A stretch of 64,000 nt of DNA from a virus. Lineage: Duplodnaviria > Caudoviricetes. Numbering within the stretch: position 1 is the stretch's first letter; the number at the start of each line of letters is the position of its first letter. Position numbers and translations under genes: made by a program. Positions 32,168 to 57,035 of the stretch are shown one piece after another. The notes under the pieces are model-generated. The model searched no databases. It had not been told where the DNA came from and worked only from the letters and a program-made list of their open reading frames with translations. The stretch spans positions 1 through 64,000 of IMG/VR virus record IMGVR_UViG_2832220722_000003. One strand, written 5' to 3'.

Positions 32168-33460
32168 TCAGCCGCGCGGCTTCATGATCTTCACGGCGGT
32201 GTCGAGCACCGTGACGCCGTGATCGGTGATTTCCTTGTGGTCGCCGTGATCCACCAGGAAGCGGATCTTCGACATGCCCAGGATGGCGCCGATCAGGATT
32301 TCCAGCTTGTCGCCGTGGTCGCCCTTTTCCTCGCTCCAGAAGAACGGGATGCCCGAGTGCTCCGAGGCGCCGAAGGCCATGGCCAGGGCCTGGCCGCCCA
32401 GCAGCAGGCCGCGGTCCACCGCGAAGGTCGTACCGAACGATGCCGGCACCTTCACGGTCGATTCCGTTTCCGAGTCGTAGGCGGCGCAATACTTGATGTC
32501 GTCGCCCGCGTAGAAGCGGATGGCCTTGGGGTTCTTCAGGATCAGGATGCCGTTCCACAGCCCCGCGTCCCCCAGGAACAGCGGGTGATCCTTGGCCAGG
32601 CGCGCGCGGGCGTGGGCATTGGCCTGGAAGGCGCGAAAGGCCGGGTCCGTCGAGAACGTGCTGTACTGCGCGGGCGAAGCCAGGAATACCCGGATGGGGC
32701 TGTCCGTCGCGGCCTGGTCGTTGTCGAACTCCACGGGCGGCGGGGGCAGCGGGATGCTATCGCCCCAGGCGCGAACGGAGTCGAGCACGTCCATGCTCAG
32801 GGTGTCGGTGGTGGAAATCACCAGTTCGCCCGCGTTGGCTTTCAGCTCGGCCACGCTGCCCGCGCCGGCCACGAGGTGGCGGTTCTTGCTGGGCGCCTTC
32901 ACGCGGTTGACCATGATGTCCGCGAACTTCGGATGCGTGTCCACGGGCACAGACCACTCGATCTTGTGGTCGTGATAGCCGCGCGCGCCGGACAGGTGCA
33001 CCAGGATGGACTGGTCCATGTACTGGTTCATCAGCTTCTGCGCCTTGGGGCGGGCCATGCGGCGCTGGTCGAACGGGCTGCGCAGCGTCGTCATGGTGTT
33101 GCCCATGTCGATGGGGAAGCGCGCCTGGTTCACGCGCAGCTTGTCCTCGCTGTAGGACATGCCGATGCCCTTGCCCTCGGCGTACTCGCTGCCCATGATC
33201 GGGTAGCCACCGATGGGGTTGTCCAAGTGGAAGGTGATTTCGTCACCCTTGTTCTTGGTCAGGTTGTCCGCACGCACGATGGGCATCGAGGTCTTGGACT
33301 GGTTGCCCTTGGCGGCGGCCACGGCCGCGTCCACCTTGGGCATGGAGCCCGTCAGGTGGCGCATCTGCGTGTTGCGCTGGCTGCAGGTGCTGAAAACACC
33401 CACGGCCTGCTGGATCATGGCGCCCGGTGCGCCATGAGGGGTATTGGTTTTGGTTTCCAC
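32168..33460 (-). CDS. Major capsid protein, N4-gp56/DUF4043 family
   Basis: PIVRADNLTKNKGDEITF; HLSGARG; HPLFLGDAGLWNGILI; RGLLLGGQALAMAFG; DHGVTVLDT; GTG start with SD AAGGAG. Confidence 0.88.
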   Translation of the reverse strand: METKTNTPHGAPGAMIQQAVGVFSTCSQRNTQMRHLTGSMPKVDAAVAAAKGNQSKTSMPIVRADNLTKNKGDEITFHLDNPIGGYPIMGSEYAEGKGIGMSYSEDKLRVNQARFPIDMGNTMTTLRSPFDQRRMARPKAQKLMNQYMDQSILVHLSGARGYHDHKIEWSVPVDTHPKFADIMVNRVKAPSKNRHLVAGAGSVAELKANAGELVISTTDTLSMDVLDSVRAWGDSIPLPPPPVEFDNDQAATDSPIRVFLASPAQYSTFSTDPAFRAFQANAHARARLAKDHPLFLGDAGLWNGILILKNPKAIRFYAGDDIKYCAAYDSETESTVKVPASFGTTFAVDRGLLLGGQALAMAFGASEHSGIPFFWSEEKGDHGDKLEILIGAILGMSKIRFLVDHGDHKEITDHGVTVLDTAVKIMKPRG

Positions 33461-33470
33461 GTCTGGCTCC

Positions 33471-34508
33471 TTAAACGGTGCGGTTCAGCCAGGCCTCGAT
33501 CTGCTCAGGCGTCATGCCTTGCGTCGCACTGAGCATTTCGGGGCCGGACATATCCGCCGTGCGGTCCAGGGCGGTAGCGCCGCCCGCGTGCCCACCAGGA
33601 ATGCTGGAAAGGCTCGCAGGGGCTTCGCTCCTGGCTGCCGCGATGGCGGCGCTGGCGGCGGCCTTGGTGTCGGCTGCCGCAGTGGTGTTGGTCTTCGGCG
33701 TGGTCGCCGCCTTGAAGGCGTCGAACACCTCCACGATTTGCTCGGCCGTGCCACCCGTCTTGTGGTCGAACAGCCCCCAATAGGCGCTGCGCACGGCACT
33801 GGGCTGGGCATCCACCCAGGCCTTGAACTCGCTGCTCTGCGCAATCGAGTCTGCGTCGGGGTGCTTGCCGTAGATGGCCTCGTAGTGGGCGGCCGCAGCG
33901 TCCTGCTGCTGCTTGGCTTGCAGGGGCTTCAAGGCTTCTGCCACGCGGGCACCCACCTGTTCCGCCACCTTCAGATCAACCAGCGTCTGGATGCCCTTGG
34001 CCAGTGCTTCCTCGGAGAAATCCCCGAACAAGTTCGCGTCCGCGCCCGCGTTAATGGCCGCCTGTGCCTGGGCTGCCATCGTGTCGGTCTTGGTCGCGGC
34101 CTCGCCCGCGTCCGCCCGCGCCTGGGCCTGCGCCTGCAGCTCGGCCAGCGCTTGCTGGGCGGCTTCTGCCTGCGCTTTCCAGTGCTGCTCGCCTTCGCGG
34201 TGCTTGACCAGCGTCTCGTAGGGGATGGTGTGTTTGCCATCGCGTGCCAGCACCACGGCCTTCGCGGGGTCTTCCGCGTCGGCCGGGGTGTTGGCGTCCT
34301 TCGGGTCACTGGCGGCGGCTGCCGCGTCGGCATTGCTCTTGGCCGTCTCATCGCCACCGGCAGCGCCCTTGTCGTCCGTCGCAGGGGTGGTCGCGGGCGC
34401 GCCACCGTTGTCCGGCTGGGCGCCGGTATCGCCCTCACCCAGGCTCAGGGCCTGTAGTGCCTGCTCCGGCGTCAGTGCGCCGTCGATGTTGGAGTAATCG
34501 AATTCCAT
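33471..34508 (-). CDS. Putative scaffolding protein
   Basis: Acidic Ala-rich coiled protein with DGKHTIPY motif, between portal and capsid; start reassigned to MEFDYS. Confidence 0.7.
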   Translation of the reverse strand: MEFDYSNIDGALTPEQALQALSLGEGDTGAQPDNGGAPATTPATDDKGAAGGDETAKSNADAAAAASDPKDANTPADAEDPAKAVVLARDGKHTIPYETLVKHREGEQHWKAQAEAAQQALAELQAQAQARADAGEAATKTDTMAAQAQAAINAGADANLFGDFSEEALAKGIQTLVDLKVAEQVGARVAEALKPLQAKQQQDAAAAHYEAIYGKHPDADSIAQSSEFKAWVDAQPSAVRSAYWGLFDHKTGGTAEQIVEVFDAFKAATTPKTNTTAAADTKAAASAAIAAARSEAPASLSSIPGGHAGGATALDRTADMSGPEMLSATQGMTPEQIEAWLNRTV

Positions 34509-45847: not shown

Positions 45848-46096
45848 ATGAAAACGCTTTCGAGCGAGCAAAAAAGAATTGCGGAACTGCAAGGGCAGTT
45901 GCATGCAATGCGTACCTGCATCACAGCGCTCCTCGTTTCCATGCCGTCAGAGCAGCAGCAAGCCTTTGCCGCCAAGTTGGAGCACTTGGCAGAATGGGCG
46001 ACGGCCAACGCTCTTGGGTCAGAGGCTCCGGAGGAGATGACTCAGGCGTTTGCCGACGAACTTCAGTCCATCCGCGCTCTATTCGCCGTACGCTAG
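45848..46096 (+). CDS. Small helical protein antisense to the cro-cII operon
   Basis: SD AAGGAGG before the ATG at 45848; protein-like composition. Confidence 0.55.
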   Translation: MKTLSSEQKRIAELQGQLHAMRTCITALLVSMPSEQQQAFAAKLEHLAEWATANALGSEAPEEMTQAFADELQSIRALFAVR

Positions 46097-46263
46097 CCTC
46101 CAAGCCTGCTTTGGCGAGTTCCATCCGAGCGTCGTGGAAGTCCTTGAGCCCGTCATCGGCGCAGACGGTGGCGACAGGTCGCCGGATCTCCGCAGGGCTT
46201 GCGGTCAGCGTCTGCGCCCTTTCGTGGCGCAGTTGAAGGCCGAGGCATAAGGCCGTGGGAAGC

Positions 46264-46542
46264 TCAGCCATGAACTCCATCCGGCACGCGCTTGCTCGCC
46301 TCCCATGCTTGCGCGGGTTCTTGGGTGGGGAAGGAGGGCAAAGGCAGGGAGCCGTAGATGTGGTCGAACGACAGCGACACACCAAAGGTGGCGGCGAAGT
46401 CGATCACCTTGCGTGCCATGTCCGGCGGGAGGGTTTGCCCGCGCTCGTAGTTCGCCACGTTGCTCTGGGTGCAGCCGAGGCCTTGTGCCAGCGCCTGCTG
46501 AGTGACTGCGAGACGCTCGCGAATGGACTTGAGGTTGTGCAT
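46264..46542 (-). CDS. cro: Cro-like HTH repressor
   Basis: LKSIRERLAVTQQALAQGLGCTQSNVANYERG; divergent from cI. Confidence 0.88.
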   Translation of the reverse strand: MHNLKSIRERLAVTQQALAQGLGCTQSNVANYERGQTLPPDMARKVIDFAATFGVSLSFDHIYGSLPLPSFPTQEPAQAWEASKRVPDGVHG

Positions 46543-46545
46543 TCC

Positions 46546-46620
46546 TCAAGTATCAGCGGCGCTTGTTTTTCTGTCAACCAGCGGCGCTTGTTTGCAATTA
46601 TTTGTCACGCTGATACTTGA
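46546..46620. promoter_or_regulatory. OR/PR/PRM control region
   Basis: Minus-strand TTGACA(46577-46572)-17 nt-GATACT(46554-46549); operators CAGCGGCGCTTGTTT at 46554-46568 and 46579-46593; plus-strand GATACT at 46612-46617 before cI. Confidence 0.85.
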
Positions 46621-46624
46621 TCCC

Positions 46625-47383
46625 ATGAGCGAATCGAACAAGAAGGCCACCGTGACGGATGAGCATCGCGAAGAGGCTCGTGCGCTCAGAGCCATATGGG
46701 AACAGGCAAAGCCCGCGAGCCAGAAGGAATTCGGTCGCGAGTTCGGTATTGGCGGACAGGCCGCAGTGAGTGCTTTTCTGGCTGGCAAGTCCGCTCTCAG
46801 CCTTAAAGCGGCGACCGGCTTCGCCACTGGCCTCGCCTGCCGCATCGAAGATTTCAGTCCACGCTTGGCCGCGAGCGCTTCTCAAGTCGCCGAGGTGACG
46901 GGAGCCCAAGGAGAAGAATCAGCACGTCCGCCAGCCACCGAAATGCGTGAGCCAAAGGTGCCGGCCGGCTACGTCCGCCTTCCTGTGTTGGCCGAGGCAG
47001 CAGCGGGTGCCGGCCGCGCACCTTTGCCTGAGGTGGTGAAGTACGTGGATGTGCTGGAGAGTTTCATCCGGCAGAGGTTCAACCGTAACCCGCACTCACT
47101 TAAGGTGCTCACGGCTCGCGGCAACAGCATGACCGGAGATATTGAAGACGGCGACGTGATGTTCGTGCAGCCGACGAACGAGTTCACGGATGACGGCATC
47201 TACGTGCTCACCTTGGACGACCTGATCCGCGTGAAACGGTTGAGCGTATCGCTCATCTCTGGCCACGTGGTCATCGAGAGCAACGATGGCCGGAAGCCGG
47301 AGGAATTGCCCTTGCGCGAGGTGCCGCACCGCCTGCATATTCAGGGCCGCGTGATCGGCGCTTGGTCGCTGCGGACGTTCTGA
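46625..47383 (+). CDS. cI: CI-like repressor with an S24 peptidase domain
   Basis: HTH SQKEFGREFGIGGQAAVSAFL; AAAGAG cleavage region; ARGNSM and RVKRL catalytic motifs. Confidence 0.92.
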   Translation: MSESNKKATVTDEHREEARALRAIWEQAKPASQKEFGREFGIGGQAAVSAFLAGKSALSLKAATGFATGLACRIEDFSPRLAASASQVAEVTGAQGEESARPPATEMREPKVPAGYVRLPVLAEAAAGAGRAPLPEVVKYVDVLESFIRQRFNRNPHSLKVLTARGNSMTGDIEDGDVMFVQPTNEFTDDGIYVLTLDDLIRVKRLSVSLISGHVVIESNDGRKPEELPLREVPHRLHIQGRVIGAWSLRTF

Positions 47384-47778
47384 TGCGCCGCGCGTTTCTG
47401 ATGGTCTCGGCAGGGGCGCTGTTGTGTGCTCCCGTCTGGCCCGCAAGCCCCTCATGCTGGATCGGCGCCAAGTGCATCAAGAGCCAAGGCACATCGATCC
47501 CGGTTTCGACGGTCCACAACATGTTGGACCGCTGTGGAGAGTTCACGGCAGGCGGCGTCGGGCGCCGCGTCCTTCGTATGTCTATTCAACAGATACAACA
47601 GGCGTCAGGCGGAAATATTCTGCACCCCGTCTTCTCCGCTTACCACGCATTCACCGAACTCTACGATAGTCCACTACTGTTTGATCGACAGTCGAATGTT
47701 GAGAGCACCAACTATGAACAAATCGCCAGCGCCTGTGCGAAGCTCAGCCGCGACTATGAAACCTGGCTGAACAAATGA
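47383..47778 (+). CDS. Exported Cys-containing hypothetical protein (lysogenic moron)
   Basis: Signal peptide MRRAFLMVSAGALLCAPVWPA; ATG overlaps the cI stop. Confidence 0.6.
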   Translation: MRRAFLMVSAGALLCAPVWPASPSCWIGAKCIKSQGTSIPVSTVHNMLDRCGEFTAGGVGRRVLRMSIQQIQQASGGNILHPVFSAYHAFTELYDSPLLFDRQSNVESTNYEQIASACAKLSRDYETWLNK

Positions 47779-48068
47779 AGTCGGCGTGGTTAAGCCTGCT
47801 GCTGGGCGCCCTGCTCCCCCTTTCTGCCGAGCCCAAAATCCCGCGCGACCGCAACGAGGTCCGCGCCTTCCGTGCCGAGCACCCCTGCCCGGCCACGGGA
47901 CGGATTCGAGGCGCTTGTCCTGGCTACCACGTTGACCATGTGATTCCCCTCTGCGCTGGCGGGCTGGACCGGCCGGTGAACATGCAGTGGATCACCCGGG
48001 AGGACCATCGCTGGAAGACGTTCGTGGACGTGCGCGAGTGCCGGAAATTGAAGAAGGAGCAGCCTTGA
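47775..48068 (+). CDS. HNH endonuclease-like protein with a signal peptide
   Basis: CPGYHVDHVIPLCAGGLDRPVNMQWITREDHRWKT; hydrophobic N-terminus. Confidence 0.75.
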   Translation: MKSAWLSLLLGALLPLSAEPKIPRDRNEVRAFRAEHPCPATGRIRGACPGYHVDHVIPLCAGGLDRPVNMQWITREDHRWKTFVDVRECRKLKKEQP

Positions 48069-48334
48069 TCCTGACCCTGAAAATCGACAAGATCGAGCCC
48101 GGCCGCTATCGCGCCGTCGTCCTTGATGGTCGTGAAGAGATGGACGAATGGGGCGCCTCCGGCATTGGTGATGCCATCCGTCAGTGCGGCCAAGCCCAGA
48201 TGCCGGACCTGTCGGGCTTCCACATCTGGTACGAGCACGTCTGCGCGGGCACCATCTCCATGAGCAACATGCGCATCGACCCCGAAGGCATCGCCCAGCG
48301 GCTGATGTCGTTGCATAGCTCCATCAAAGGCTGA
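48065..48334 (+). CDS. Hypothetical protein
   Basis: TTG start after GAAGGAG, overlapping the HNH stop. Confidence 0.55.
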   Translation: MILTLKIDKIEPGRYRAVVLDGREEMDEWGASGIGDAIRQCGQAQMPDLSGFHIWYEHVCAGTISMSNMRIDPEGIAQRLMSLHSSIKG

Positions 48335-48337
48335 CCA

Positions 48338-48541
48338 ATGACCAATGCCCCTCGCCTCCAATACACCAGCGTCAGAACCCGCATCATAGACGGAGTGCCG
48401 CTCATCGGCCTGAGGCACACAGCCAAGGGCGCCGCCGACATGCCGATCAAGACTGTCTGGATCGAAATGCCACCAGAGGACGTGGAACGGTTGATCAAGA
48501 CGCTGCAGGAGACGCTCGCCGAGTTGGGCGCAAGCGACTGA
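48338..48541 (+). CDS. Hypothetical protein
   Basis: 67-aa ORF 3 nt after the previous stop. Confidence 0.55.
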   Translation: MTNAPRLQYTSVRTRIIDGVPLIGLRHTAKGAADMPIKTVWIEMPPEDVERLIKTLQETLAELGASD

Positions 48542-48634
48542 CTGAAGGTCACCATCGAATTGAGAGTAGCGCTGCAAGGTGATAGCGAAATCCTAATAGC
48601 GGAACTATTAGGCCGTGCTACAGTCCAAATTGCT

Positions 48635-49129
48635 ATGCAATCCACACAAGGCCGCATCAACATCGCCCGCATGACGCCAGTAGGCGCTCAGGCGTTTGCC
48701 GCGCGCAACCTGGAACTGCTGGCCGCCATCGAGAACACCCTCGACGCATTGAGCGCTGACACAAATCTTCTGCACGCCATTCACGCCGGCTATCGGGAAA
48801 TTCACGAGAAGCTGGAAGGCACCGCCACCGCCATCGATGAGGGGGGGCGCATCCAGGGCATACTGGACAAGGCTGGTGCATCCTGCGCTCGCATCTACCA
48901 CGATGCATGCCAGCGTCATCAAAGCGCATGCCAAGACCCACAGTTGCGCCCTGACGACGGCGTGGCAGACGCCTACAGCGCCTTCATCGACGCGCTGCGC
49001 GAGTTGCACGACACCATCGAGTACCTGCGCGAATGGATCGCCACGCATGATGCCGTACTGCAACCCACCACAGGAACGGTGTACGCCAGCGCAGACGATC
49101 TGTTTGCCGCCCTGCTGCCCCGTCATTGA
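48635..49129 (+). CDS. Putative antitoxin
   Basis: C-terminal TVYASADDLFAALL resembles RelB/DinJ toxin-binding tails; 4-nt overlap with the toxin gene; start uncertain (48560 or 48635). Confidence 0.55.
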   Translation: MQSTQGRINIARMTPVGAQAFAARNLELLAAIENTLDALSADTNLLHAIHAGYREIHEKLEGTATAIDEGGRIQGILDKAGASCARIYHDACQRHQSACQDPQLRPDDGVADAYSAFIDALRELHDTIEYLREWIATHDAVLQPTTGTVYASADDLFAALLPRH

Positions 49130-49419
49130 GCCGCATCACCATCACCGGCCTAGCAAATTCCGATCGGTTCGCATCGGATTTGCGCAGCGCGCCAGCAGAA
49201 GTGCAACGAGCCGCCCTGGAGGCCATCAGGCTATTGCAGACCAACCCCGGAGCTAAATCGCTGCGCCTACACAACCTCAAGGGCATGCCCAAACCCACCA
49301 TCTGGAAGATCGACGTGTACGCCAACCATGCCTGGCAGATCACCTTTGAGATGAACGGCCAAGTGGCAGAACTAAAGCGACTAGGCACGCACAAGACCAT
49401 TGACCGCGATCCGCGCTGA
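49126..49419 (+). CDS. RelE/YafQ-superfamily toxin
   Basis: SDRFASDL...SLRLHNLKG...WQITF...LKRLGTH. Confidence 0.72.
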   Translation: MSRITITGLANSDRFASDLRSAPAEVQRAALEAIRLLQTNPGAKSLRLHNLKGMPKPTIWKIDVYANHAWQITFEMNGQVAELKRLGTHKTIDRDPR

Positions 49420-49438
49420 ATAGCCTACTCGCCTACAC

Positions 49439-49466
49439 AAAGCCGCCCACCGAGGCGGCTTTTTTT
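49439..49466 (+). terminator. Intrinsic terminator ending the cI-moron transcript
   Basis: AAAGCCGCC-CACCGA-GGCGGCTTTTTTT. Confidence 0.8.
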
Positions 49467-49504
49467 CGTCTGTTGGATGGTGGGCATGGGGGGTGTAGCA
49501 AAAA

Positions 49505-49549
49505 AAACAAGCGCCGCTGATTGACATGTAAACAAGCGCCGCTGATAAT
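49505..49549 (+). promoter_or_regulatory. OL/PL early promoter
   Basis: TTGACA(49521-49526)-17 nt-GATAAT(49544-49549); operators AAACAAGCGCCGCTGA at 49505-49520 and 49530-49545, the reverse complement of the OR sites. Confidence 0.88.
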
Positions 49550-50364
49550 TCCTCATCGACACAACGAACCCCAGCAGACGGATGTGGAAGCTGGAGCGAA
49601 GGCAAGGCAATGCCGGTTCGGTCGGGTGAATCCTGCGCTGCAGGCTCTCCCTGGCACCACGTCGGTGGGCACCACGGCATCGACCAGGCTGCTCTAGTTC
49701 TCGCAGCTTGGCAGGCTGGGTAAACAAAGCACCTCCGCGGTCGGCAGCGGGTTAAAAGAGGCCGCCCCCGCTCTACCACTCGCACGCCGCCCGGATGGGA
49801 TCACGGTGTAAATGCAGCGATCTGGGAAAGGCCGGTCGAAGTCCACACCCTGGGGCCGAATACGGGGTTGAGGCGCGGCGCCAAGAACAGAAAGCCGATG
49901 GGTGAAGACGACCCACCACAACGGTCATGCCGGTTGGAATCCCGGCGCAGTCCTCGCAAGAGGGCCATCACGCATGCCGGTTGACCTGTCTGCAGCAGGG
50001 ATCAATGGCCGCATTCGGGAAACAGCGTGGGCAGGCCCCACTGCGATCCTGAGTCCCAGCCCGAGATTGCAGCCGGCAGTCGTGATGGTTGCGCATGACT
50101 GGAAGCCCTCGGCGCTACGGCGCTCAGGCGGCAGACAGACCTGTGACGGCGCGGCGCGGCCTTACGGCCAAGCGGCCTATGGAATGCAGCCCGAAAAATG
50201 CGGAAGGTAGCCCGCAACCATCAACCATTTCCCAACCGCGCCGAGCAGCGCAACTACCGCCCTCCCCCTCTCTTTTGCTCGGCATGCCCAAGCGGCAAGC
50301 GGCTTTCTTTTTTCCACGGCCCTCCACGCGAGGGCTTTTTCTTTTCCACCACCAGGAGCACACA

Positions 50365-50937
50365 GTGCACATCACCCTCAACAACCCGACCTTCAATTTC
50401 CAGGCGCCACCCGCCGACTTCTTCGCCGTACTGCTGCGCGGCAAAGAACCTGACACCACGGCGCCAGCAGTAACAAAGGCCGTCTCTGGACGCCCGCAGA
50501 TCGGCGAATACTGGGCCGGCCAAGGCGGCATCTACGCGGGCGACTTCCGCGCCGGTGACGGTTTGACCTACGGCCTGATTGCCGCGCCCGATCAGGACAT
50601 CGGCCGCGCCACATGGGGCCCCAACGGCAAGCGCGATCTGTCTGGCTGGGATGGGCTGGAGAACACCCGCAGCCTCATCAAAGAGAGCCCCGCAGCCAAG
50701 CTGGCCGCCGGCTACACCCGCGACGGGCACAGCGATTTCTACCTACCCGCCCACCGCGAGCTGCTGCTGGGCGCGGCCAACCTGTACGAGACATTCGGCA
50801 CGGAGTCCTGGTATTGGACGAGCACGCCATACGCCAACGACTACGCAAAGGCCTTCGACTTCGAGACCGGGCACTGCCTCTACTACAGCCGCGACCACGA
50901 GTTCCGCGTCCGGCCCTTCCGCAGATTCATTTATTGA
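50365..50937 (+). CDS. DGR target protein 1 (DUF1566/CLec-like)
   Basis: GTG start after AGGAG; GQGGIYAG, DGHSDFYLPAHREL, WYWTST; C-terminal VR. Confidence 0.9.
   Translation: MHITLNNPTFNFQAPPADFFAVLLRGKEPDTTAPAVTKAVSGRPQIGEYWAGQGGIYAGDFRAGDGLTYGLIAAPDQDIGRATWGPNGKRDLSGWDGLENTRSLIKESPAAKLAAGYTRDGHSDFYLPAHRELLLGAANLYETFGTESWYWTSTPYANDYAKAFDFETGHCLYYSRDHEFRVRPFRRFIY
50850..50923 (+). repeat. DGR variable repeat VR1
   Basis: Identical to TR except 9 substitutions, all at TR adenines (AAC to ACC, CAC, CTC, TAC, TAC, AGC, GAC, CAC). Confidence 0.95.
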
Positions 50938-50979
50938 GCCCTTCACCCATTCCTCTCATCACCACAGCAGGAGCATCCA

Positions 50980-51399
50980 GTGACCACCGAAGCCAAAACG
51001 CGCATCCCCGCCCTCAACACGCCCTGGCCCGAGCAGGGCGGCATTTACATCGGCTCGCGCCTCGTCAACGGCGCTGTCCACCATGTCGTGATCGCTGACG
51101 GCGGCACGGCCCGCGACCTCACGGGTCAGAACTTCAAGGCCGCGCAGAACGTTCAGTTCGGCGAGATTGACGGGCACAGCGACTGGCACGCAGGCGACCA
51201 GGAAGACCACATGCTGGCCTACATCAACGGCCGCGAGCACTTCAAGCAGGAAGACGACAGCATCTACTGGACGCGCGGCGAGCACCACGGCTGGCCCTGG
51301 GCCTTCGACTTCGAGGACGGGCACTGCAACGGCAACTACCGCTACTACGAGTTCCGCGTCCGGCCCTTCCGCAGTTTTCCCGATTCATCCATTCAGTAA
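50980..51399 (+). CDS. DGR target protein 2 (DUF1566/CLec-like)
   Basis: WPEQGGIYIG, DGHSDW, IYWT; C-terminal VR. Confidence 0.9.
   Translation: MTTEAKTRIPALNTPWPEQGGIYIGSRLVNGAVHHVVIADGGTARDLTGQNFKAAQNVQFGEIDGHSDWHAGDQEDHMLAYINGREHFKQEDDSIYWTRGEHHGWPWAFDFEDGHCNGNYRYYEFRVRPFRSFPDSSIQ
51300..51373 (+). repeat. DGR variable repeat VR2
   Basis: Identical to TR except 7 substitutions, all at TR adenines (GAC, CAC, GGC, TAC, TAC, TAC). Confidence 0.95.
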
Positions 51400-51402
51400 T
51401 TC

Positions 51403-51417
51403 GCGGGCGTAGCCCGC
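51403..51417 (+). promoter_or_regulatory. DGR target-recognition DNA hairpin downstream of VR2
   Basis: GCGGGC-GTA-GCCCGC stem with a GNA triloop about 30 nt after VR2. Confidence 0.6.
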
Positions 51418-51424
51418 TCACGGC

Positions 51425-51886
51425 ATGGCGCTCCACACCGACACCGAGATTTACAAGGCCACCTACGACCTGACCAAGTTGGTCACCGCGCTGGTATCCA
51501 ACATGCCACGCAACTACAGGTCTGACTTCGGCGCGGATCTGCGCCGCGATTGCATGACGCTGGTGAAACGCACCTATCAGGCGAACACCAGGGAGGACAA
51601 GGTTCCCGTCCTGCAGCGGATGCGCGAGGAAGTCGAAGAAGTGAACCTGGCACTGCGGCTGGCCGTAGACCTTGAGTTGATTTCGAACAAGCAGTATGGA
51701 CGCGCCATTGTCCTGACCGCGAGCGTCGGGAAGCAAGCCACAGGGTGGCAGAAACATTCGGAGAGTGCGCTTGTCGCCGAGTCGTCAAGGCGGCCCGGCC
51801 AACGCGCCATGGAATCTGGTCGAGCCGCTGGGGCACAACCCCACCGCAAGGCGCAGCAGGAATATCGACGGCAGCAGCCGCAGTGA
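51425..51886 (+). CDS. avd: Accessory variability determinant (Avd-like four-helix bundle)
   Basis: IYKATYDL...MPRNYRSDFG...LRLAVDLELISNKQY...SVGKQATGW; directly upstream of TR. Confidence 0.88.
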   Translation: MALHTDTEIYKATYDLTKLVTALVSNMPRNYRSDFGADLRRDCMTLVKRTYQANTREDKVPVLQRMREEVEEVNLALRLAVDLELISNKQYGRAIVLTASVGKQATGWQKHSESALVAESSRRPGQRAMESGRAAGAQPHRKAQQEYRRQQPQ

Positions 51887-51941
51887 TTCCGCGCAGTTTG
51901 TCCGCTGAAGCTTCGGCGGGCTGACGTGATCGCTCGACATT

Positions 51942-52015
51942 GGCCTTCGACTTCGAGAACGGGAACTGCAACAACAACAACCGCAACAACGAGTTCCGCG
52001 TCCGGCCCTTCCGCA
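51942..52015 (+). ncRNA. DGR template repeat (TR)
   Basis: G GCC TTC GAC TTC GAG AAC GGG AAC TGC AAC AAC AAC AAC CGC AAC AAC GAG TTC CGC GTC CGG CCC TTC CGC A; eight AAC codons; between avd and RT. Confidence 0.95.
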
Positions 52016-52034
52016 TATCCCACCGAGAGTTTCT

Positions 52035-53135
52035 ATGGATGCTGGTTATTCGCTCGAAAAGCTGGTGCAGGCTTACTTCGACTGCAGAAGGCACAAACGC
52101 ACCACGGCGAGCGCGCTGCGCTTTGAGCAGCGCCTGGAGTACAACCTAATGGAGTTGCATGAGGCCATGGAGGACGGTAGCTACCGCCCAGGGCCTTCTA
52201 TCTGCTTCGCTATCAGCAGGCCCAGGCCACGCGAGGTGTGGGCCGCGAGCTTCCCGGATCGCATCGTGCACCATATGGTCTACAACCAGATCGCCGAGCG
52301 CTTTCATCGTCGGTTCATCGCCGACTCGTGCGCGTGTATTCCCGGCAGGGGCACGCTGTACGGCGCCACGCGGTTGGAAGCCAAGGTGCGCAGCCTGACA
52401 CAGAACTGGAGCAGGCCGGCCTTCTACTTGAAGATCGACCTCGCGAATTTCTTTGTCTCCATCGACAAGCGGGTGCTCTGGCCCCTGCTGGTCGATCAAA
52501 TTCACGAACGCTGGTGGCGCGGTCTCACCAAGATCGTGCTGTTCCACGATCCGCGCGAGGACTATGAGCTGCGCGGCAGCGCGGAGACTCTGGCGAAGGT
52601 GCCGGAGCACAAGCGCCTGACGAACGCCGACCGCTACCACGGACTGCCCATCGGCAACCTGTCGTCTCAGTTTTTCGCAAACGTGCTCTTGAACGAATTG
52701 GATCAGCACATCAAGCACTACATCCGTGCGCGTCACTACACGCGCTACGTCGATGACATGGTGCTGCTGCACGAGTCGCCCGACTGGCTCAACGCCGCGC
52801 TGGCCGACATCAATGCATTCCTACCCAGCCTTGGCCTGGCGCTGAACCCGCGCAAGACGGTGCTGCAGCCGATCCATCGAGGCATCGACTACGTGGGACA
52901 GGTCATCCTGCCGTGGCGGCGCGTGACCCGGCGCCGCACGCTGCGCCAGGCCCTGGACCGGCTGGAGGACATGTCCGACGAGGACGTGTACACGAGCGGG
53001 AACAGCTACCTCGGTTTGGTGCGGCAGGCCAGCCATAGCCACCACGAGCAGGCCCTGATCTGCCGCGCGCTCCTCAAGCGAGGGCATGCCGTTGACGGCC
53101 TGCACCTTGAAAAGGCGTTTCGCAAACGCTGCTGA
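52035..53135 (+). CDS. DGR reverse transcriptase
   Basis: FPDRIVHH, LKIDLANFF, DGR-type GLPIGNLSSQFFAN, RYVDD, GIDYVG; intact 366-aa frame. Confidence 0.96.
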   Translation: MDAGYSLEKLVQAYFDCRRHKRTTASALRFEQRLEYNLMELHEAMEDGSYRPGPSICFAISRPRPREVWAASFPDRIVHHMVYNQIAERFHRRFIADSCACIPGRGTLYGATRLEAKVRSLTQNWSRPAFYLKIDLANFFVSIDKRVLWPLLVDQIHERWWRGLTKIVLFHDPREDYELRGSAETLAKVPEHKRLTNADRYHGLPIGNLSSQFFANVLLNELDQHIKHYIRARHYTRYVDDMVLLHESPDWLNAALADINAFLPSLGLALNPRKTVLQPIHRGIDYVGQVILPWRRVTRRRTLRQALDRLEDMSDEDVYTSGNSYLGLVRQASHSHHEQALICRALLKRGHAVDGLHLEKAFRKRC

Positions 53136-53160
53136 TAGCAGACCGACCGACCACCCACCC

Positions 53161-53183
53161 AAGCCCGCAGCAGCGGGCTTTTT
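53161..53183 (+). terminator. Intrinsic terminator after RT
   Basis: AAGCCCGC-AGCA-GCGGGCTTTTT. Confidence 0.75.
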
Positions 53184-53200
53184 CACGCATGGAGATTCAT

Positions 53201-53455
53201 ATGGATTTCGCGCACCCGGCCATGCAGGCCATGTCACGACGTGCCCACACCTGCGCCACAGCCCAACAGGCACGCATAAAGGGGGAGACCGCTGACCGCG
53301 AAGACGCGGAGTTACTGCGCTGGCTGCTGGACCAGGGTGTGGACTTCATCGGCCTGCGCGACGGCGGCGGTATCGACTGCGCGAACCATCCCGGTGGCGC
53401 TCACGCTGCGCTGATCGATGCACGCAGGGACCAGCAACAAGGAGAACACCCATGA
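53201..53455 (+). CDS. Hypothetical phage protein
   Basis: SD GGAG; DAELLRWL motif. Confidence 0.55.
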   Translation: MDFAHPAMQAMSRRAHTCATAQQARIKGETADREDAELLRWLLDQGVDFIGLRDGGGIDCANHPGGAHAALIDARRDQQQGEHP

Positions 53456-53682
53456 AAGAAGCCGCGTGGATCATCGCAGCCGTGCTCACGCTGGGCATAG
53501 GCGCCATCGCTGGCCATGAAGCAGAGGCCGACAAGCAAGACGCCGAAGCCATGGCAAGCCGCGAGTGGGCCGGCCGACAGGCCTGCGCCCCGGATGCCAC
53601 ACCAGAGTGGCTGGACGACAAGACGCACAGATGCTTGCGGAATCTGGATGACGCATTGAGCGTCGCGGGAGGCCGGCCGTGA
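53452..53682 (+). CDS. Small membrane-anchored hypothetical protein
   Basis: SD AAGGAG; N-terminal TM segment. Confidence 0.55.
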   Translation: MKEAAWIIAAVLTLGIGAIAGHEAEADKQDAEAMASREWAGRQACAPDATPEWLDDKTHRCLRNLDDALSVAGGRP

Positions 53683-53959
53683 ACCACCTGCGCGAATTCA
53701 TCCGGCTCTACCGCATCTACAGACGGATCAACAACCCCTTCAACGCCGCGCGCTATGCGTGGATCGTCGCTTGCGGGTAACGCATAGCGCGACACCAAAC
53801 ACGTGGCCGGAAAGCACGTGTGCGCCTGCGGCGCCTGGAAACTGGGAGAGCCGCAGCACCAGGCTGAGCACCTGCCAGCCGAGGATTCCGAGGGCTGCGG
53901 GCTCTAACCCCATCGCGCTCACACCCGCCCGCTCCCGCGGGCTTTTTTTTGGAGGCCGT

Positions 53960-54373
53960 ATGGCTCAAAAACTCATCAACCCCACCAAGAAGGTGGACCG
54001 AAAGTCGTTCGCCGACTTTCTCGCGGCCCAGCCCGACCTTGCTGACGAGCTGGCGGATGCGCTGAGCGACATGGTGCACGCCAGCACCGAAACCGGCAAG
54101 GTCAGCGAATTGACCTTGAAGGTGAAGCTCAAGCCCCTGGGCGGCACGTCCGGTCAGGTGGAGCTGGACACGGACGTGAAGGCCAAGCTGCCCCAGCCGG
54201 CGCGGGGCAAGACGCTCATGTTCGCCACGCCCAGCAACAACCTGCAGCGCGAGAACCCCAAGCAGCAGACGCTGGATGGCCTGCGCACGGCCGACCAGGA
54301 AGCCAGCGCGCAGACGGAACTGCGCCAGGCACCAAAGGATTCCAACGTCGAGCCCCTGCGCGCCGTCCACTGA
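53960..54373 (+). CDS. YfdP-like phage protein
   Basis: TGKVSELTLKVKLKP...MFATPSNNLQRENPKQ; usual partner of DUF2303; SD GGAGG. Confidence 0.7.
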   Translation: MAQKLINPTKKVDRKSFADFLAAQPDLADELADALSDMVHASTETGKVSELTLKVKLKPLGGTSGQVELDTDVKAKLPQPARGKTLMFATPSNNLQRENPKQQTLDGLRTADQEASAQTELRQAPKDSNVEPLRAVH

Positions 54374-54429
54374 TCCGGCCCCGACCGGCTCCCTTTCTTC
54401 CCTAACCGCCCATCAACAAGGAGTACCCA

Positions 54430-55272
54430 ATGGACCTTGCCAACATTCAATCCGAAGTCATCGCCAATGACGCCCTCGCGGCCTGCAATCAGGCTACCCG
54501 CCTAGTCGGCGCCACGCCCGTGGTGCTGCTGCCCGAGGGCTTTGAAGCGGAGAACCTGGAGAAGCTGCTGCCGTCCCCCACGCGCAAGCGCGGCACCACC
54601 GTCCTGAACGATGCCGAGTCGTTCATCGCCGTGGTGAACGATCAGCAGGACGGCAGCAGCACGCGCCTGTTCTCCACCATCGACCCGCCCACCTTCACGG
54701 CCGTGTTCAACCACCACGGCAGTGAGCCCGGCTGGGGCGACCACCGCGCGAAGTACAACGCGCCGCTGTCGCCTGAGTGGAAGGCTTGGACCGGCGCCAA
54801 TGGCGTCAAGCGCAACCAGGTGGACATGGCCCAGTTCCTGGAGGCCAACATGGTGGATGTGGCGTACATCGCGCCCAACGGCCCCGGCGAACCCGGCAGC
54901 CCGGACGGCGCGACGCTGCTGGAAATCTGCCGCACGCTCGAAGCCACCAAGAAGGTCAACTTCAAGAGCACCGTGCGCCTGCCCGATGGCTCTACCCAGT
55001 TCACCTACGACGAGGACGTGGCCGGCAGCGCCGTCAAGGGAACGATGGCCATTCCCGAGCAGTTCTCTATCGGCGTGCCGGTTTTCGAGAACGGCGAGAA
55101 GTACCGCCAGGACGTGCGTTTCCGCTATCGCATCCAGGAAGGCGGCAACCTGGTGATGTGGCTGGAGTTGATTCGCCCGCACAAGGTCATCGAGGACGCC
55201 GTGAAGCAGTTGCGCGCGCTGATCGGTGAGCAGACCGGCCTGCTCGTGCTCAACGGCGCACCGTCCGTCTAA
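54430..55272 (+). CDS. DUF2303 (YfdQ) family protein
   Basis: AVFNHH...GWGDHRA...SPEWKAW; IPEQFSIGVPVFENG; RFRYRI. Confidence 0.85.
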   Translation: MDLANIQSEVIANDALAACNQATRLVGATPVVLLPEGFEAENLEKLLPSPTRKRGTTVLNDAESFIAVVNDQQDGSSTRLFSTIDPPTFTAVFNHHGSEPGWGDHRAKYNAPLSPEWKAWTGANGVKRNQVDMAQFLEANMVDVAYIAPNGPGEPGSPDGATLLEICRTLEATKKVNFKSTVRLPDGSTQFTYDEDVAGSAVKGTMAIPEQFSIGVPVFENGEKYRQDVRFRYRIQEGGNLVMWLELIRPHKVIEDAVKQLRALIGEQTGLLVLNGAPSV

Positions 55273-55381
55273 GCAGCCCTCGCGCTGCTCCCATCAAGCC
55301 CGGCCCAGTGCCGGGCTTTTTCATGGGCTATGAGCACAGGGCGCCCCGTGCCTTGTGCTGATACCCCCTGAAAGGAGTTCC

Positions 55382-56023
55382 ATGGACCGAAGGCAGAAAG
55401 ACATCACCACCATGGCCGAGCACGCCGATCTGGCCGTGGTGAGCTGCGAGAAAAAGAACAGCCGCCAGTACGCCACGCTGCTGGCCGAGAACGGCGTCAA
55501 GCGCACGTTCTCCATCAGCATGGGCAGCCGCAGCGATCCGCGCGGCGACCTGAATGAGTTGGGCGCCATGAAGCGCTTTTCCCGCGAGAACCGCATTCCG
55601 GCCGCGCCCCAGGCGCAGCCCCTTCCATCCGCCCCTGAAACCACGCCACAACCCATGACCATGACCGCCGCAGCCACCAAGAAGACCATGACCATACCCG
55701 CCACCAAGAAGGCCGCAGTGCAGTCCCTTTCCCACGTCGATTTCTACCGAGTGTGCGAGTGGGTCAAGGCTCAGAACCTAGCCACCGTGCCCAACCTGGA
55801 AGCCCTGGCCATGCTGGCTGGCCAGTGGCTGCAGTCCGCCGTGCCCGAAGAAGAAATGAAGCTGGTGATGGACACCATCGGTGTGCGGGAGCCACCGCAC
55901 TGGGCCGAGCCTACCAACCCCCAGGCCATCCTGGCGCGCGAGCTGCTGACGGTCATGAAGAAGCTGGGCGAGGAACCGAGCACTGCGTTCAAGCGCCTGG
56001 CCGACTCGCTGCTGCCCGCCTGA
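55382..56023 (+). CDS. Hypothetical phage protein
   Basis: SD AAAGGAG before the ATG at 55382. Confidence 0.65.
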   Translation: MDRRQKDITTMAEHADLAVVSCEKKNSRQYATLLAENGVKRTFSISMGSRSDPRGDLNELGAMKRFSRENRIPAAPQAQPLPSAPETTPQPMTMTAAATKKTMTIPATKKAAVQSLSHVDFYRVCEWVKAQNLATVPNLEALAMLAGQWLQSAVPEEEMKLVMDTIGVREPPHWAEPTNPQAILARELLTVMKKLGEEPSTAFKRLADSLLPA

Positions 56024-56083
56024 GCCCCACCGATCCACTACCAAGGCCCGCCGCGCGCGGGCCTTTTGCATTCAGAGGCCGCC

Positions 56084-56269
56084 ATGCGCCAAACCAAAGA
56101 AGTCCAACCCTACAAGCCGCCCAGCCACTGCTACCAGGGCGACGAGTTGAAGCCGAACCCGGGCATGCCCGCCGAGCGCCTGTACGCCTTCACCCTGCCC
56201 AGCCGCAATGGGAAGTGGCTGCATTACCCGGACGGGCGCTGCGAGCTATTTCCCCTCGCCAATCAATGA
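56084..56269 (+). CDS. Small hypothetical phage protein
   Basis: SD GAGG; YQGDELKP...AFTLPSR motif. Confidence 0.5.
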   Translation: MRQTKEVQPYKPPSHCYQGDELKPNPGMPAERLYAFTLPSRNGKWLHYPDGRCELFPLANQ

Positions 56270-56296
56270 GTGTTCGCTAGCTTTTAAGGAGCAATC

Positions 56297-56836
56297 ATGA
56301 CCATCGCAATCGAAAACCCAATTGCCTGGATCGACGCCCTGGGAGGATCGTCCGCGAGCTTTGAAATCTCATCCCACGCGGCAGTCGGCCGCGATGACAT
56401 GGAGGGGTGGGGCACTTCCTTGACCCACCTGAGCCGGCCGGAGGCCGAAATTCGCCGCCACATCGAGCGCGAGAACGGGCAGGTGCTGATGTTGAACATC
56501 GGCCTCCAGCCCGTGCACCCGATCACCAGCACACAGCGCGTGCGCTGGGGTTCGACGCTCAAGGTGGGTGAGGGCCGCTACGTGCGCGCCCATGGCGACT
56601 GCGCCGATTTCCCGACCGCGTTCCAGCAGGTGAATGCCCATCAGCATGCCAGCCGCGTGATTGGTTCGCTGACCTGGTGGCAGGAAGGCGAAAAGGATTC
56701 GTGGGTGAGTTGGATCGGCGCGGCACGGCTGGAGGCCATGCGCATGGCCCACGGACAGGAAGGCTGGTATTTCAGCGTCCACGGCGAAGCGCCCACGCTT
56801 GAAGAAGCCGCGCTCCTGGCATCGATCCACGGATAG
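56297..56836 (+). CDS. Hypothetical phage protein
   Basis: SD TAAGGAG; 179-aa ORF. Confidence 0.65.
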   Translation: MTIAIENPIAWIDALGGSSASFEISSHAAVGRDDMEGWGTSLTHLSRPEAEIRRHIERENGQVLMLNIGLQPVHPITSTQRVRWGSTLKVGEGRYVRAHGDCADFPTAFQQVNAHQHASRVIGSLTWWQEGEKDSWVSWIGAARLEAMRMAHGQEGWYFSVHGEAPTLEEAALLASIHG

Positions 56837-57035
56837 CACCAGCCCGCCCCGCGCGGGCTTTCTTTTTTTGGAGTTGCCATGAGCACCACCCAACCCCAGG
56901 GGCAGCAGCCCCAGCCCATCAAGCGCTGCGCCAGCTGCGGCGCTCCCGTCCACAAGGAACCCACGCCAGGCGAAGGCCTGCCCTGCGGACATTGAAAGGC
57001 CGCCATGACCACCAACACCCCATGAAAGGACCACT

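What the first reader, a model, noticed from the sequence alone, without database searches (positions are those of the whole stretch)
50365..53135. Intact two-target DGR diversifying small early, apparently cytoplasmic proteins instead of a tail fibre
Seen: TR 51942-52015 has eight AAC codons. VR1 differs at 9 positions and VR2 at 7, all at TR adenines and with different substitutions, so the two were mutagenised independently. The RT (GNLSSQ, YVDD) and Avd are intact. Eight AAC codons allow 15^8, about 2.6 billion, protein variants per target. The TR is short (74 nt versus about 134 in BPP-1). The targets have no signal or virion anchor and are the first genes under the CI-repressed PL promoter, far from the tail genes. 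Inference: a hypervariable intracellular binder pair, plausibly an adaptable counter-defence or host-takeover system active on induction.
Basis: partly seen in the sequence, partly recalled or inferred. Interest (0 to 1): 0.85.

Follow-up and report, generated by a model that had tools for sequence, protein, structure and literature searches.

The report
Active phage DGR in early operon
A prophage carries a working mutagenic retroelement that keeps rewriting eight residues in each of two small lectin-fold proteins; unusually, these lie in the repressor-controlled early operon and not beside the tail genes, so they may bind something inside the infected cell.

Summary
TR 51942-52015 (74 nt, 8 in-frame AAC) matches VR1 (50850-50923) and VR2 (51300-51373) with 9 and 7 mismatches, all at TR adenines. 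Avd, an Rfam RT-15 RNA abutting the TR, and a DGR-type RT are intact. The element is active in nature: contigs from three other public runs match the laid window stretch except at 22 VR positions, all at TR adenines, plus one 5-difference patch in the leader. The promoter at 49521-49549 carries the same two-operator module as the cro promoter, so "CI-repressed PL" is supported. However, about 0.8 kb of non-coding leader and a terminator hairpin separate it from target 1. The cassette (50301-53188, terminator to terminator) also sits in an otherwise unrelated phage. In 32 related loci its neighbours are integrases, methyltransferases, recombination genes and repressors; no virion family appears in the tallies. 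BPP-1's cassette ends the tail operon instead. The DGR itself is a canonical member of a known lineage with short DUF1566 targets. The intracellular-binder or counter-defence reading fits the context but is unproven. A virion or extracellular adhesin role is not excluded.

The parts
46548..46593 (-). cro-side promoter with two operator copies (PR/OR-like), between cro (46264-46542, -) and cI (46625-47383, +)
   Evidence: The promoter scan found 46577-46549 on the - strand, 10 of 12. It forms a 46-nt inverted repeat, 89% complementary, with 49505-49550. cI matches Peptidase_S24 at 2.3e-16.
49439..49462 (+). terminator-like hairpin that closes the cI-side immunity genes just before PL
   Evidence: 9-pair stem followed by a T run.
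49505..49550 (+). PL-like promoter (hexamers 49521-49526 and 49544-49549, 11 of 12) overlapped by two identical 17-nt operator copies
   Evidence: direct repeat D3, inverted repeat I1.
49556..50317 (+). non-coding leader of about 0.8 kb between PL and the cassette; function unknown
   Evidence: No ORF passes the GC3 test. No Rfam family reaches its gathering score; one sub-threshold match, STnc100 at E 0.15, lies at 49430-49471, at the terminator before PL. Fold z-score is 0.11. It is not conserved in L006.
50318..50345 (+). intrinsic-terminator-like hairpin plus T run directly before target 1; left edge of the mobile cassette
   Evidence: A GC hairpin plus T run, with differing stem sequences, precedes target 1 in all 8 sequences read by eye. 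Homology to L006 starts at 50301.
50365..50937 (+). target 1: 190 aa, GTG start, a low-confidence N-terminal stretch of about 45 residues followed by a C-type-lectin-fold (DUF1566/Lcl_C) domain
   Evidence: Lcl_C at 4.4e-6, below the Pfam cut-off. 187 homologues of 104-333 aa. Model pLDDT 77; best PDB match 8q4e_A, the Lcl C-terminal domain, at E 6.3e-6.
50850..50923 (+). VR1
   Evidence: 9 mismatches to the TR, all at A. 14 positions differ in contigs of other runs, all at TR adenines.
50980..51399 (+). target 2: 139 aa, GTG start, a paralogue of target 1 without the N-terminal stretch and without one internal insertion
   Evidence: hhalign of A1 against A4: probability 99.9%, E 6.3e-36. Lcl_C at 7.2e-4. 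The structure model is poor (pLDDT 62.7).
51300..51373 (+). VR2
   Evidence: 7 mismatches to the TR, all at A. 8 positions differ in contigs of other runs, all at TR adenines.
51403..51417 (+). GC hairpin (6-bp stem, 3-nt loop) about 30 nt after VR2, the usual DGR target-site hairpin; VR1 has none
   Evidence: Read. A like hairpin follows 19 of 20 target-2-type VR flanks listed.
51425..51886 (+). avd (accessory variability determinant)
   Evidence: bAvd PF22296 at 1.5e-14.
51765..51944 (+). RT-15 RNA (Rfam RF03018); overlaps the 3' end of avd and abuts the TR
   Evidence: 134.5 bits against a gathering score of 82. Present in 7 of 7 relatives scanned.
51942..52015 (+). template repeat (TR)
   Evidence: The record holds only three copies of the shared 3' end.
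52035..53135 (+). DGR reverse transcriptase
   Evidence: RVT_1 at 1.6e-15. IGNLSSQ and YVDD are present. It is the only RT match in the 79-kb record.
53163..53183 (+). terminator-like hairpin plus T run after the RT; right edge of the cassette
   Evidence: Read; the scan did not list it. Homology to L006 ends at 53188.

Best explanation
This is an active, canonical diversity-generating retroelement of the RT-15 RNA / short-DUF1566-target lineage. It is carried as a terminator-bracketed mobile cassette (50301-53188) inside the CI-controlled early-left operon of a lambdoid podovirus-type prophage. Proposed sequence of events: when CI repression is lifted, PL (49521-49549) fires. Transcription crosses a 0.8-kb leader and must read through a terminator (inferred). 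It then produces target 1, target 2, Avd, the RT-15/TR RNA and the RT. RT with Avd copies the TR RNA with adenine-specific errors, and the cDNA replaces VR1 or VR2 (shown indirectly by A-only variation). This randomises eight residues on the lectin-fold face of each protein. The two paralogous proteins are small, lack export signals, and can only be transcribed from the early strand. My best reading is therefore that they act as soluble binders made early inside the infected cell against a variable host ligand, for example strain-specific defence or takeover targets. I do not think they act as tail-fibre tips. That the DGR is real and active I rate at about 0.95. The non-virion, intracellular role I rate at about 0.5. 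The ligand is unknown.
For: DGR anatomy and A-only mismatches.

Natural activity: contigs of runs X1, X2 and X3 match the laid window stretch where they cover it, except at 14 VR1 and 8 VR2 positions, all at TR adenines, plus one 5-difference patch at 49857-49911.

PL shares a 46-nt two-operator module with the cro promoter.

Strand logic: the late genes and int are on the - strand and the cassette is on the + strand. Late read-through would therefore be antisense to the cassette.

Context in 32 RT-bearing relatives, four ORFs on each side: upstream, YqaJ 6, DUF2303 4, RdgC 3, SSB 2, ERF 2 of 113 ORFs; downstream, C5 methylase 7, integrase 6, RdgC 3, Lar 2 of 115 ORFs.

Of 115 large ORFs within 10 kb, 18 match an integrase family and 10 a methyltransferase family, and there are recombination exonucleases and repressors. 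No virion family is among the 25 commonest.

The cassette is 79% identical in record G001, which shares only 7 of 64 window ORFs and none of the structural ones.

It also sits between the CI-like repressor and the exonuclease in Pseudomonas phage phPA-G, taxonomy Detrevirus in the record.

RT-less homologues of target 1 occupy the same early-left region in phages vB_Pae_U9, Medea1 and PAN70.

Neither target has a signal-like or membrane-like segment, and each has one Cys, which is encoded within the VR.
Against: There is no direct evidence of location, timing or ligand.

The same DUF1566 lectin domain is the C-terminal part of long tail-fibre-like phage proteins (a Peptidase S74 protein, a collagen-repeat protein, a 'tail fiber protein') in the BFVD fold search. 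Target 1 also matches the C-terminal end of the 583-position profile phrog_4245.

Phage virion proteins do not need signal peptides.

Target 1 has a conserved N-terminal stretch that could be a docking peptide.

Neighbouring methyltransferases and Lar are ordinary contents of early-left operons and do not show that the targets themselves act in counter-defence.

No known anti-defence family matches. The PADLOC library of defence proteins gave nothing for either target.
Confidence: 0.5

Rival explanations
1. The two targets are receptor-binding accessories. They would be small adhesins that join the virion, like tail-fibre tip adhesins, or that are released at lysis, and the DGR would switch tropism as in BPP-1. 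They would merely be encoded away from the tail genes.
For: The DUF1566 lectin domain ends tail-fibre-like proteins in other phages (phrog_4245). Viral DGR targets are mostly predicted to be tail proteins (PMC8144416, section 9). Target 1 has a conserved N-terminal stretch that could dock. Virion proteins need no signal peptide.
Against: The cassette is shared at 79% identity by a phage with no detectable homologue of any window structural gene. It also occurs in a phage whose record places it in Detrevirus. A virion partner would then have to be generic. The cassette lies in the early-left operon in all loci examined and is antisense to late transcription. Target 2 has no N-terminal extension at all. 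BPP-1's cassette, by contrast, ends the tail operon.
Confidence: 0.3
2. The targets serve the lysogen. They would be a prophage-encoded, DGR-diversified recognition module that senses or blocks superinfecting phages or other invaders.
For: DGR-based immunity with cytosolic variable proteins has been proposed (PMC10053308, passages). The region next to cI often holds exclusion genes, and a small HNH-like ORF with a signal-like N-terminus lies there.
Against: The cassette lies behind a promoter with CI operators and behind a terminator, so it should be silent in a stable lysogen. The proteins have no effector or signalling domain. PADLOC gave no match.
Confidence: 0.08
3. The cassette is a largely selfish or neutral passenger. 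It spreads between phage early regions and its targets give the phage no selected benefit.
For: It is a discrete module from terminator to terminator that moves between unrelated phages. Decayed copies exist: L010 keeps only an RT remnant, and L016 has targets without Avd or RT.
Against: The target scaffold is strongly conserved outside the VR across 40 aligned homologues, with 31 invariant columns. RT-less homologues persist in cultured phages. VR variants in nature remain in frame at AAC-derived codons only.
Confidence: 0.07

Closest known systems
Bordetella phage BPP-1 tropism-switching DGR (mtd-avd-TR-brt)
   Same: Same order of parts (target, Avd, TR, RT). Adenine-specific TR-to-VR mutagenesis. 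VR at the 3' end of a lectin-fold target. GC hairpin after the VR. Temperate phage with a cI/cro switch.
   Different: BPP-1's cassette follows the large structural genes at the end of the cro-side operon, and its 381-aa target is annotated as a tail protein. Here the cassette is on the cI side behind PL. There are two targets of 190 and 139 aa of the DUF1566 type. The TR is 74 nt rather than 134 nt. The gap between TR and RT is 19 nt, and an RT-15 RNA lies upstream of the TR.
Legionella pneumophila DGR with target LdtA: category 'd' DUF1566 targets of Wu et al. 2018 (PMC5758913, passages)
   Same: A DUF1566-type lectin VR. That survey states that about half of category 'd' targets are short and DUF1566-only. 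The best solved fold match to target 1 is the Legionella Lcl C-terminal domain, 8q4e_A.
   Different: LdtA is described there as a surface lipoprotein. Targets 1 and 2 have no signal or lipobox-like segment and are phage early-operon genes.
Pseudomonas phage VB_PaD_phPA-G (PP083311), cassette annotated 'Avd protein' and 'reverse transcriptase'
   Same: Homologous target (44% identity), Avd, RT-15 RNA and RT (61% identity), between a CI-like repressor and an exonuclease gene.
   Different: Only one adjacent homologous target was seen. The host and virion type differ. In the phage's paper the words reverse transcriptase, DGR, Avd and retroelement occur 0 times (PMC11433742).
Gut prophage DGRs with a second, distal VR near counter-defence genes (PMC12629997, passages) and two-target phage DGRs, the 'tentaclins' (PMC10743442, abstract)
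   Same: More than one target per phage DGR. A published suggestion that some VRs lie beside DNA methyltransferases and take part in the arms race.
   Different: In those phages the main target is a known or predicted tail protein and the RT cassette sits beside it. Here both targets and the whole cassette lie in the early operon, and no tail-type target exists: the 79-kb record holds only three copies of the shared 3' end.

Membership tests
Diversity-generating retroelement (DGR) | Reverse transcriptase with the DGR-type [I/L]GxxxSQ motif and YxDD | tested here: met
   IGNLSSQ and YVDD are in the 366-aa ORF. RVT_1 at 1.6e-15. That this motif is diagnostic of DGR RTs is recalled, not taken from a call.
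Diversity-generating retroelement (DGR) | TR/VR pair whose differences fall only at TR adenines | tested here: met
   16 of 16 mismatches lie at A. Chance is about 8e-10.
Diversity-generating retroelement (DGR) | Accessory variability determinant (Avd) | tested here: met
   bAvd PF22296 at 1.5e-14, 54.8 bits against a cut-off of 40.
Diversity-generating retroelement (DGR) | VR at the C-terminal end of a C-type-lectin-fold target | tested here: met
   The VRs end 14 and 26 nt before the stop codons. The target 1 model matches 8q4e_A and C-type lectin domains. The target 2 model is of low confidence, but the protein is a clear paralogue of target 1.
Diversity-generating retroelement (DGR) | VR-specific 3' element (IMH against IMH*) and a downstream GC hairpin | tested here: inconclusive
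   After the shared GC-rich end, the VR flanks begin AG and carry a conserved TTCAYCC-type element. The TR flank differs from them. VR2 has the hairpin at 51403-51417 and VR1 has none, yet VR1 varies in nature. The function of these elements was not tested.
Diversity-generating retroelement (DGR) | Ongoing mutagenic retrohoming | tested here: met
   22 variable positions in VR1 and VR2 across contigs of three runs, all at TR adenines. The only differences outside the VRs are a 5-difference patch at 49857-49911. These are contigs, not raw reads, so rates cannot be given.
RT-15 RNA (Rfam RF03018) | Covariance-model score above the gathering threshold | tested here: met
   134.5 bits against 82, over the full model length. 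7 of 7 relatives also match.
Lcl_C / DUF1566 (PF07603) | Pfam score at or above the gathering cut-off (34.9 bits) | tested here: not met
   27.4 bits for target 1 and 20.3 bits for target 2. Many homologues do carry the precomputed PF07603 call, and the fold matches the Lcl C-terminal domain. These proteins are divergent relatives rather than clear members by score.
Mtd-type tail-fibre target (BPP-1-like tropism cassette) | Target with an Mtd-like N-terminal domain, encoded at the end of the tail gene cluster | tested here: not met
   Neither target matches any Pfam family other than Lcl_C. The cassette lies about 37 kb from the tail-fibre gene, on the opposite strand. Compare BPP-1.
Phage counter-defence (anti-defence) protein | Homology to a characterised anti-defence family, or a shown inhibition of a defence system | not testable with these tools
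   No anti-defence library was available. PADLOC, a library of defence proteins, gave no match. Only the genomic context speaks for this role.

The most novel reading that the evidence does not exclude
Lambdoid phages of Burkholderiales and Pseudomonas carry a portable, terminator-insulated DGR cassette. It gives each phage lineage its own pair of antibody-like soluble lectin-fold binders, made only in the early phase of infection. Their randomised faces would be selected to bind and neutralise strain-variable intracellular host proteins such as defence sensors. That would be the first diversity-generating counter-defence system in a virus.
Probability: 0.3. Interest if true: 0.9.

Novelty: new member of a known kind. 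Interest (0 to 1): 0.6.

Why it matters
DGRs are the only known natural machines for targeted protein hypermutation outside vertebrate immunity, and in phages they are read almost entirely as tail-fibre diversifiers. This lineage is widespread: 33 of 46 related loci carry A-biased TR/VR pairs. It is demonstrably active in nature. It is consistently placed among early, integrase-proximal genes and never beside virion genes in the loci examined. It also exists in a cultured Pseudomonas phage. That makes the question of what non-tail phage DGR targets do directly testable, through knock-outs, virion proteomics and pull-downs. If the targets act inside the cell, the known roles of DGRs would widen. 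Such small soluble scaffolds, already evolved to tolerate eight randomised positions, could also be useful as a binder platform.

Tried and rejected
- **Phage DNA search:** megablast of 46000-57000 against the phage collection found no match.
- **Leader 49556-50317 as a structured RNA:** no Rfam family reached its gathering score, and the one sub-threshold match (STnc100, E 0.15) lies at 49430-49471, upstream at the terminator before PL. Folding energy was no better than shuffles (z 0.11). There was no homology in L006 and only short patches in other loci. No tRNA was found in the window.
- **Fused or longer forms of target 1:** the word-indexed 'longer' search found none at E <= 1e-8, which the tool itself calls weak evidence. 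The profile search of 1.84 billion representatives gave 8782 hits at E <= 0.001. Most of the best 150 are 157-290 aa. About 20 are giant multi-repeat proteins that score through several DUF1566 repeats. I did not examine those further.
- **Target 2 structure:** the model was poor (pLDDT 62.7, 20-sequence alignment), so I ran no fold search on it.
- **Capsid protein in five related records:** no match and no positive control within that call. The same handles did return the RT in 2 of 5, and the tblastn covers G001 independently. The tail-fibre N-terminus matched only PAN70, weakly.
- **Run X17:** this RNA-library run gave no contig over the cassette itself. That is no evidence about expression.
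- **Literature:** searches listed no paper whose title or abstract start describes a DGR in the early-left operon of lambdoid phages. Table S1 of PMC5758913 and the data of PMC8144416 may already list these loci. The search for 'RT-15' found nothing, so what I say about the origin of that motif is recalled.
- **Dropped rows:** L036 was left out of the neighbour counts because it gave results identical to L035. For the large-ORF tally, 115 of 139 ORFs were scanned; L019, L023, L025, L028 and one L050 ORF were dropped to meet the residue limit.
Full report
**Observation**

The three repeats are real. In one ungapped register, TR 51942-52015 (74 nt, 20 A) matches VR1 50850-50923 with 9 mismatches and VR2 51300-51373 with 7. 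All 16 mismatches lie at TR adenines. The chance of that is about 8e-10.

In frame, the TR holds eight AAC codons. The VRs differ from it only at the first two bases of those codons. Four TR positions are changed in both VRs, three of them to different bases, so the two VRs were rewritten separately.

The whole 79-kb provirus record holds only these three copies of the shared GC-rich 3' end, and only one RT.

Target 1 (50365-50937, 190 aa) and target 2 (50980-51399, 139 aa) both start at GTG behind similar ribosome-binding sites. The start of target 1 agrees with 40 aligned homologues.

Avd (51425-51886) matches bAvd at 1.5e-14. The RT (52035-53135) matches RVT_1 and carries IGNLSSQ and YVDD. 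An Rfam family, RT-15 RNA, matches 51765-51944 at 134.5 bits. It overlaps the end of avd and stops at the first bases of the TR.

**Activity**

I laid Logan contigs of four public runs on 49400-53200.
- In X1 (a soil metagenome holding 0.88 of the sampled words), one 1410-nt contig carries 15 differences. Twelve of them reach the position table, all in VR1 or the covered start of VR2.
- One other short X1 contig carries differences outside the VRs (6 in the contig table, 5 in the position table, at 49857-49911). Three of the other long X1 contigs carry none. Of the remaining three pieces, one (a 25-nt piece of a 19.7-kb contig) shows 2 other letters.
- In X2 (labelled as an organism), two contigs carry 8 differences each, all in VR1 or VR2. 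The other X2 pieces listed carry none.
- X3 shows one listed change, in VR1. Its contig table also lists one short 43-nt piece (49505-49547) with 4 other letters.

The 14 VR1 and 8 VR2 positions all correspond to TR adenines. Translation of the variants changes only AAC-derived codons.

These are contigs at depths of about 3-6, so no rate can be given, and X1 may be the window's own sample. Sequencing errors, however, would not fall on 22 template adenines only.

**Relatives**

Target 1 has 187 homologues of similar length. In an alignment of 40 of them, variation is concentrated in the columns encoded by the VR.

A scan of species-representative genomes gave 45 loci, and IMG/VR gave one more.
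- 33 of the 46 loci hold at least one TR/VR pair with at least 80% of mismatches at A.
- 29 hold two or more such pairs, up to four.
- The order target 1, target 2, Avd, RT recurs in Comamonadaceae and Alcaligenaceae. A form with one adjacent homologous target occurs in Pseudomonas.
- RT-15 RNA precedes the TR in 7 of 7 relatives scanned.
- After the shared VR end, VR flanks begin AG and carry a conserved short element, while TR flanks differ. A GC hairpin follows 19 of 20 target-2-type VRs. It is missing after VR1 in the window's clade.

This is therefore a populous and already catalogued kind. Wu et al. describe DUF1566 targets as category 'd', about half of them short with no other motif (PMC5758913, passages).

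**Regulation and position**

A near-consensus promoter (11 of 12) lies at 49521-49549, just after a terminator. It is overlapped by two identical 17-nt repeats spaced 25 nt apart.

The same module, inverted and 89% complementary over 46 nt, forms the cro-side promoter at 46548-46593, between cro and an S24-type cI.

However, 0.8 kb without a credible ORF follows the promoter, and then a terminator-like hairpin with a T run comes directly before target 1. A hairpin plus T run, with differing stems, precedes target 1 in all 8 close sequences that I read. L006 shows the same layout of promoter, long leader and two terminators.

Another hairpin plus T run follows the RT at 53163-53183 (read). Homology to L006 runs from 50301 to 53188 at 79% identity, that is, from terminator to terminator.

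All late genes are on the - strand:
- terminase, portal and capsid;
- a 4764-aa polyvalent protein;
- a tail-fibre gene at 12429-13505;
- an endolysin.

The integrase is on the - strand too. Late read-through would therefore be antisense to the cassette. Its mRNA can come only from the early strand.

**Context across the family**

In 32 RT-bearing loci, I scanned the four ORFs on each side of the cassette.
- Upstream (113 ORFs): YqaJ 6, DUF2303 4, further Lcl_C targets 4, RdgC 3, SSB 2, ERF 2.
- Downstream (115 ORFs): C5 DNA methylase 7, integrase 6, RdgC 3, Lar 2.

I also scanned 115 of 139 large ORFs within 10 kb. Eighteen match an integrase family, 10 a methyltransferase family, 6 and 5 match recombination exonucleases, and 5 match repressors. 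No virion family is among the 25 commonest.

Record G001, which holds L006, shares 7 of 64 window ORFs. Four of those are the cassette, and none is a structural gene.

Pseudomonas phage phPA-G, placed in Detrevirus by its record, carries target, Avd, RT-15 RNA and RT between its CI-like repressor and its exonuclease gene. Its paper does not mention them (PMC11433742).

Phages vB_Pae_U9, Medea1 and PAN70 carry target-1 homologues in the same region and show no RT match.

In BPP-1 the cassette instead follows the large structural genes at the end of the cro-side operon.

**The proteins**

The target 1 model (pLDDT 77) has a confident lectin-like core from about residue 45. Its best solved match is the Legionella Lcl C-terminal domain, 8q4e_A, at E 6.3e-6, followed by C-type lectin domains. 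Residues 1-45 are of low confidence but conserved in sequence.

Target 2 is a paralogue without that stretch (hhalign 99.9%). Its own model is poor.

Neither protein has a hydrophobic segment, and each has one Cys, which lies within the VR.

Against a purely intracellular reading, the same domain ends long tail-fibre-like proteins of other phages, and target 1 matches the C-terminal end of a 583-position PHROG profile.

**Interpretation**

The diversification mechanism is canonical and I consider it established.

The function of the targets is inferred. Four things favour a soluble binder made early inside the cell:
- expression only from the early strand, under CI control;
- a portable cassette shared by phages with unrelated virions;
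- no anchor at all on target 2;
- RT-less homologues kept in the same early region.

A variable host ligand, such as a defence component, would explain why hypermutation pays. The neighbourhood of methyltransferases and Lar is compatible with that. A 2025 study made a similar suggestion for distal VRs in gut prophages (PMC12629997, passages).

None of this shows location or ligand. I rate the non-virion reading at about 0.5, an adhesin role at about 0.3, a lysogen-defence role at under 0.1, and a neutral passenger at under 0.1.

**Novelty**

The element is a new member of a known kind. What my literature searches did not find described (calls listed under Tried and rejected) is its constant early-left position, its terminator-to-terminator mobility, and the existence of a cultured phage in which the question can be tested.

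Noticed in passing
window:49556-50317 (+): About 0.8 kb with no credible ORF lies between PL and the cassette, and L006 has an unrelated leader of about 1.75 kb in the same place. An RNA-library run (X17, same study as X1) yielded one 349-nt contig at 49577-49924 with no differences, starting about 20 nt after the expected transcript start. DNA carry-over cannot be excluded.
   Followed up: partly
window:13986-28280 (-): A single 4764-aa ORF in the virion gene block carries LPD37, an inorganic pyrophosphatase domain and SNF2/ResIII helicase-like domains. From memory, it resembles the 'polyvalent proteins' thought to be injected with phage DNA.
   Followed up: partly
window:47775-48068 (+); L006:4700-5140 (+): Between cI and PL lies a 97-aa HNH-like ORF (PHROG HNH endonuclease, 1.8e-6) with a signal-peptide-like N-terminus. 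At the equivalent place L006 has a staphylococcal-nuclease homologue, also with a hydrophobic N-terminus. These may be exported nucleases expressed from the prophage.
   Followed up: no
G000 (L005) 69426-79217: Beyond the prophage integrase (G000 63830-64963, - strand), the record continues into a second integrase with an arm-binding domain, plus DUF932 and a ParB-like protein. The provirus call probably includes part of a neighbouring mobile element.
   Followed up: no
window:50924-50980 against 51374-51417: VR2 is followed by the usual GC hairpin and VR1 is not, yet VR1 shows more variable positions in nature (14 against 8). Alcaligenaceae relatives do have a hairpin after VR1.
   Followed up: partly
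L010, L016, L038, L040, L043: Decayed or RT-less arrangements exist. L010 keeps both targets but only the last ~34 residues of the RT. L016 has both targets without Avd or RT. Three Trinickia loci have three tandem target-1-like genes with no RT within 10 kb.
   Followed up: no
window:51765-51886: The last ~40 codons of avd lie inside the RT-15 RNA match, beyond the bAvd domain (residues 11-111). This tail may be conserved for the RNA and not for the protein.
   Followed up: no
L060 (BPP-1) 33229-33558: The BPP-1 record annotates a second 'variable region 2' inside bbp36, in the cI-side operon and away from the DGR cassette. That is a variable early-side gene in the archetypal DGR phage.
   Followed up: no
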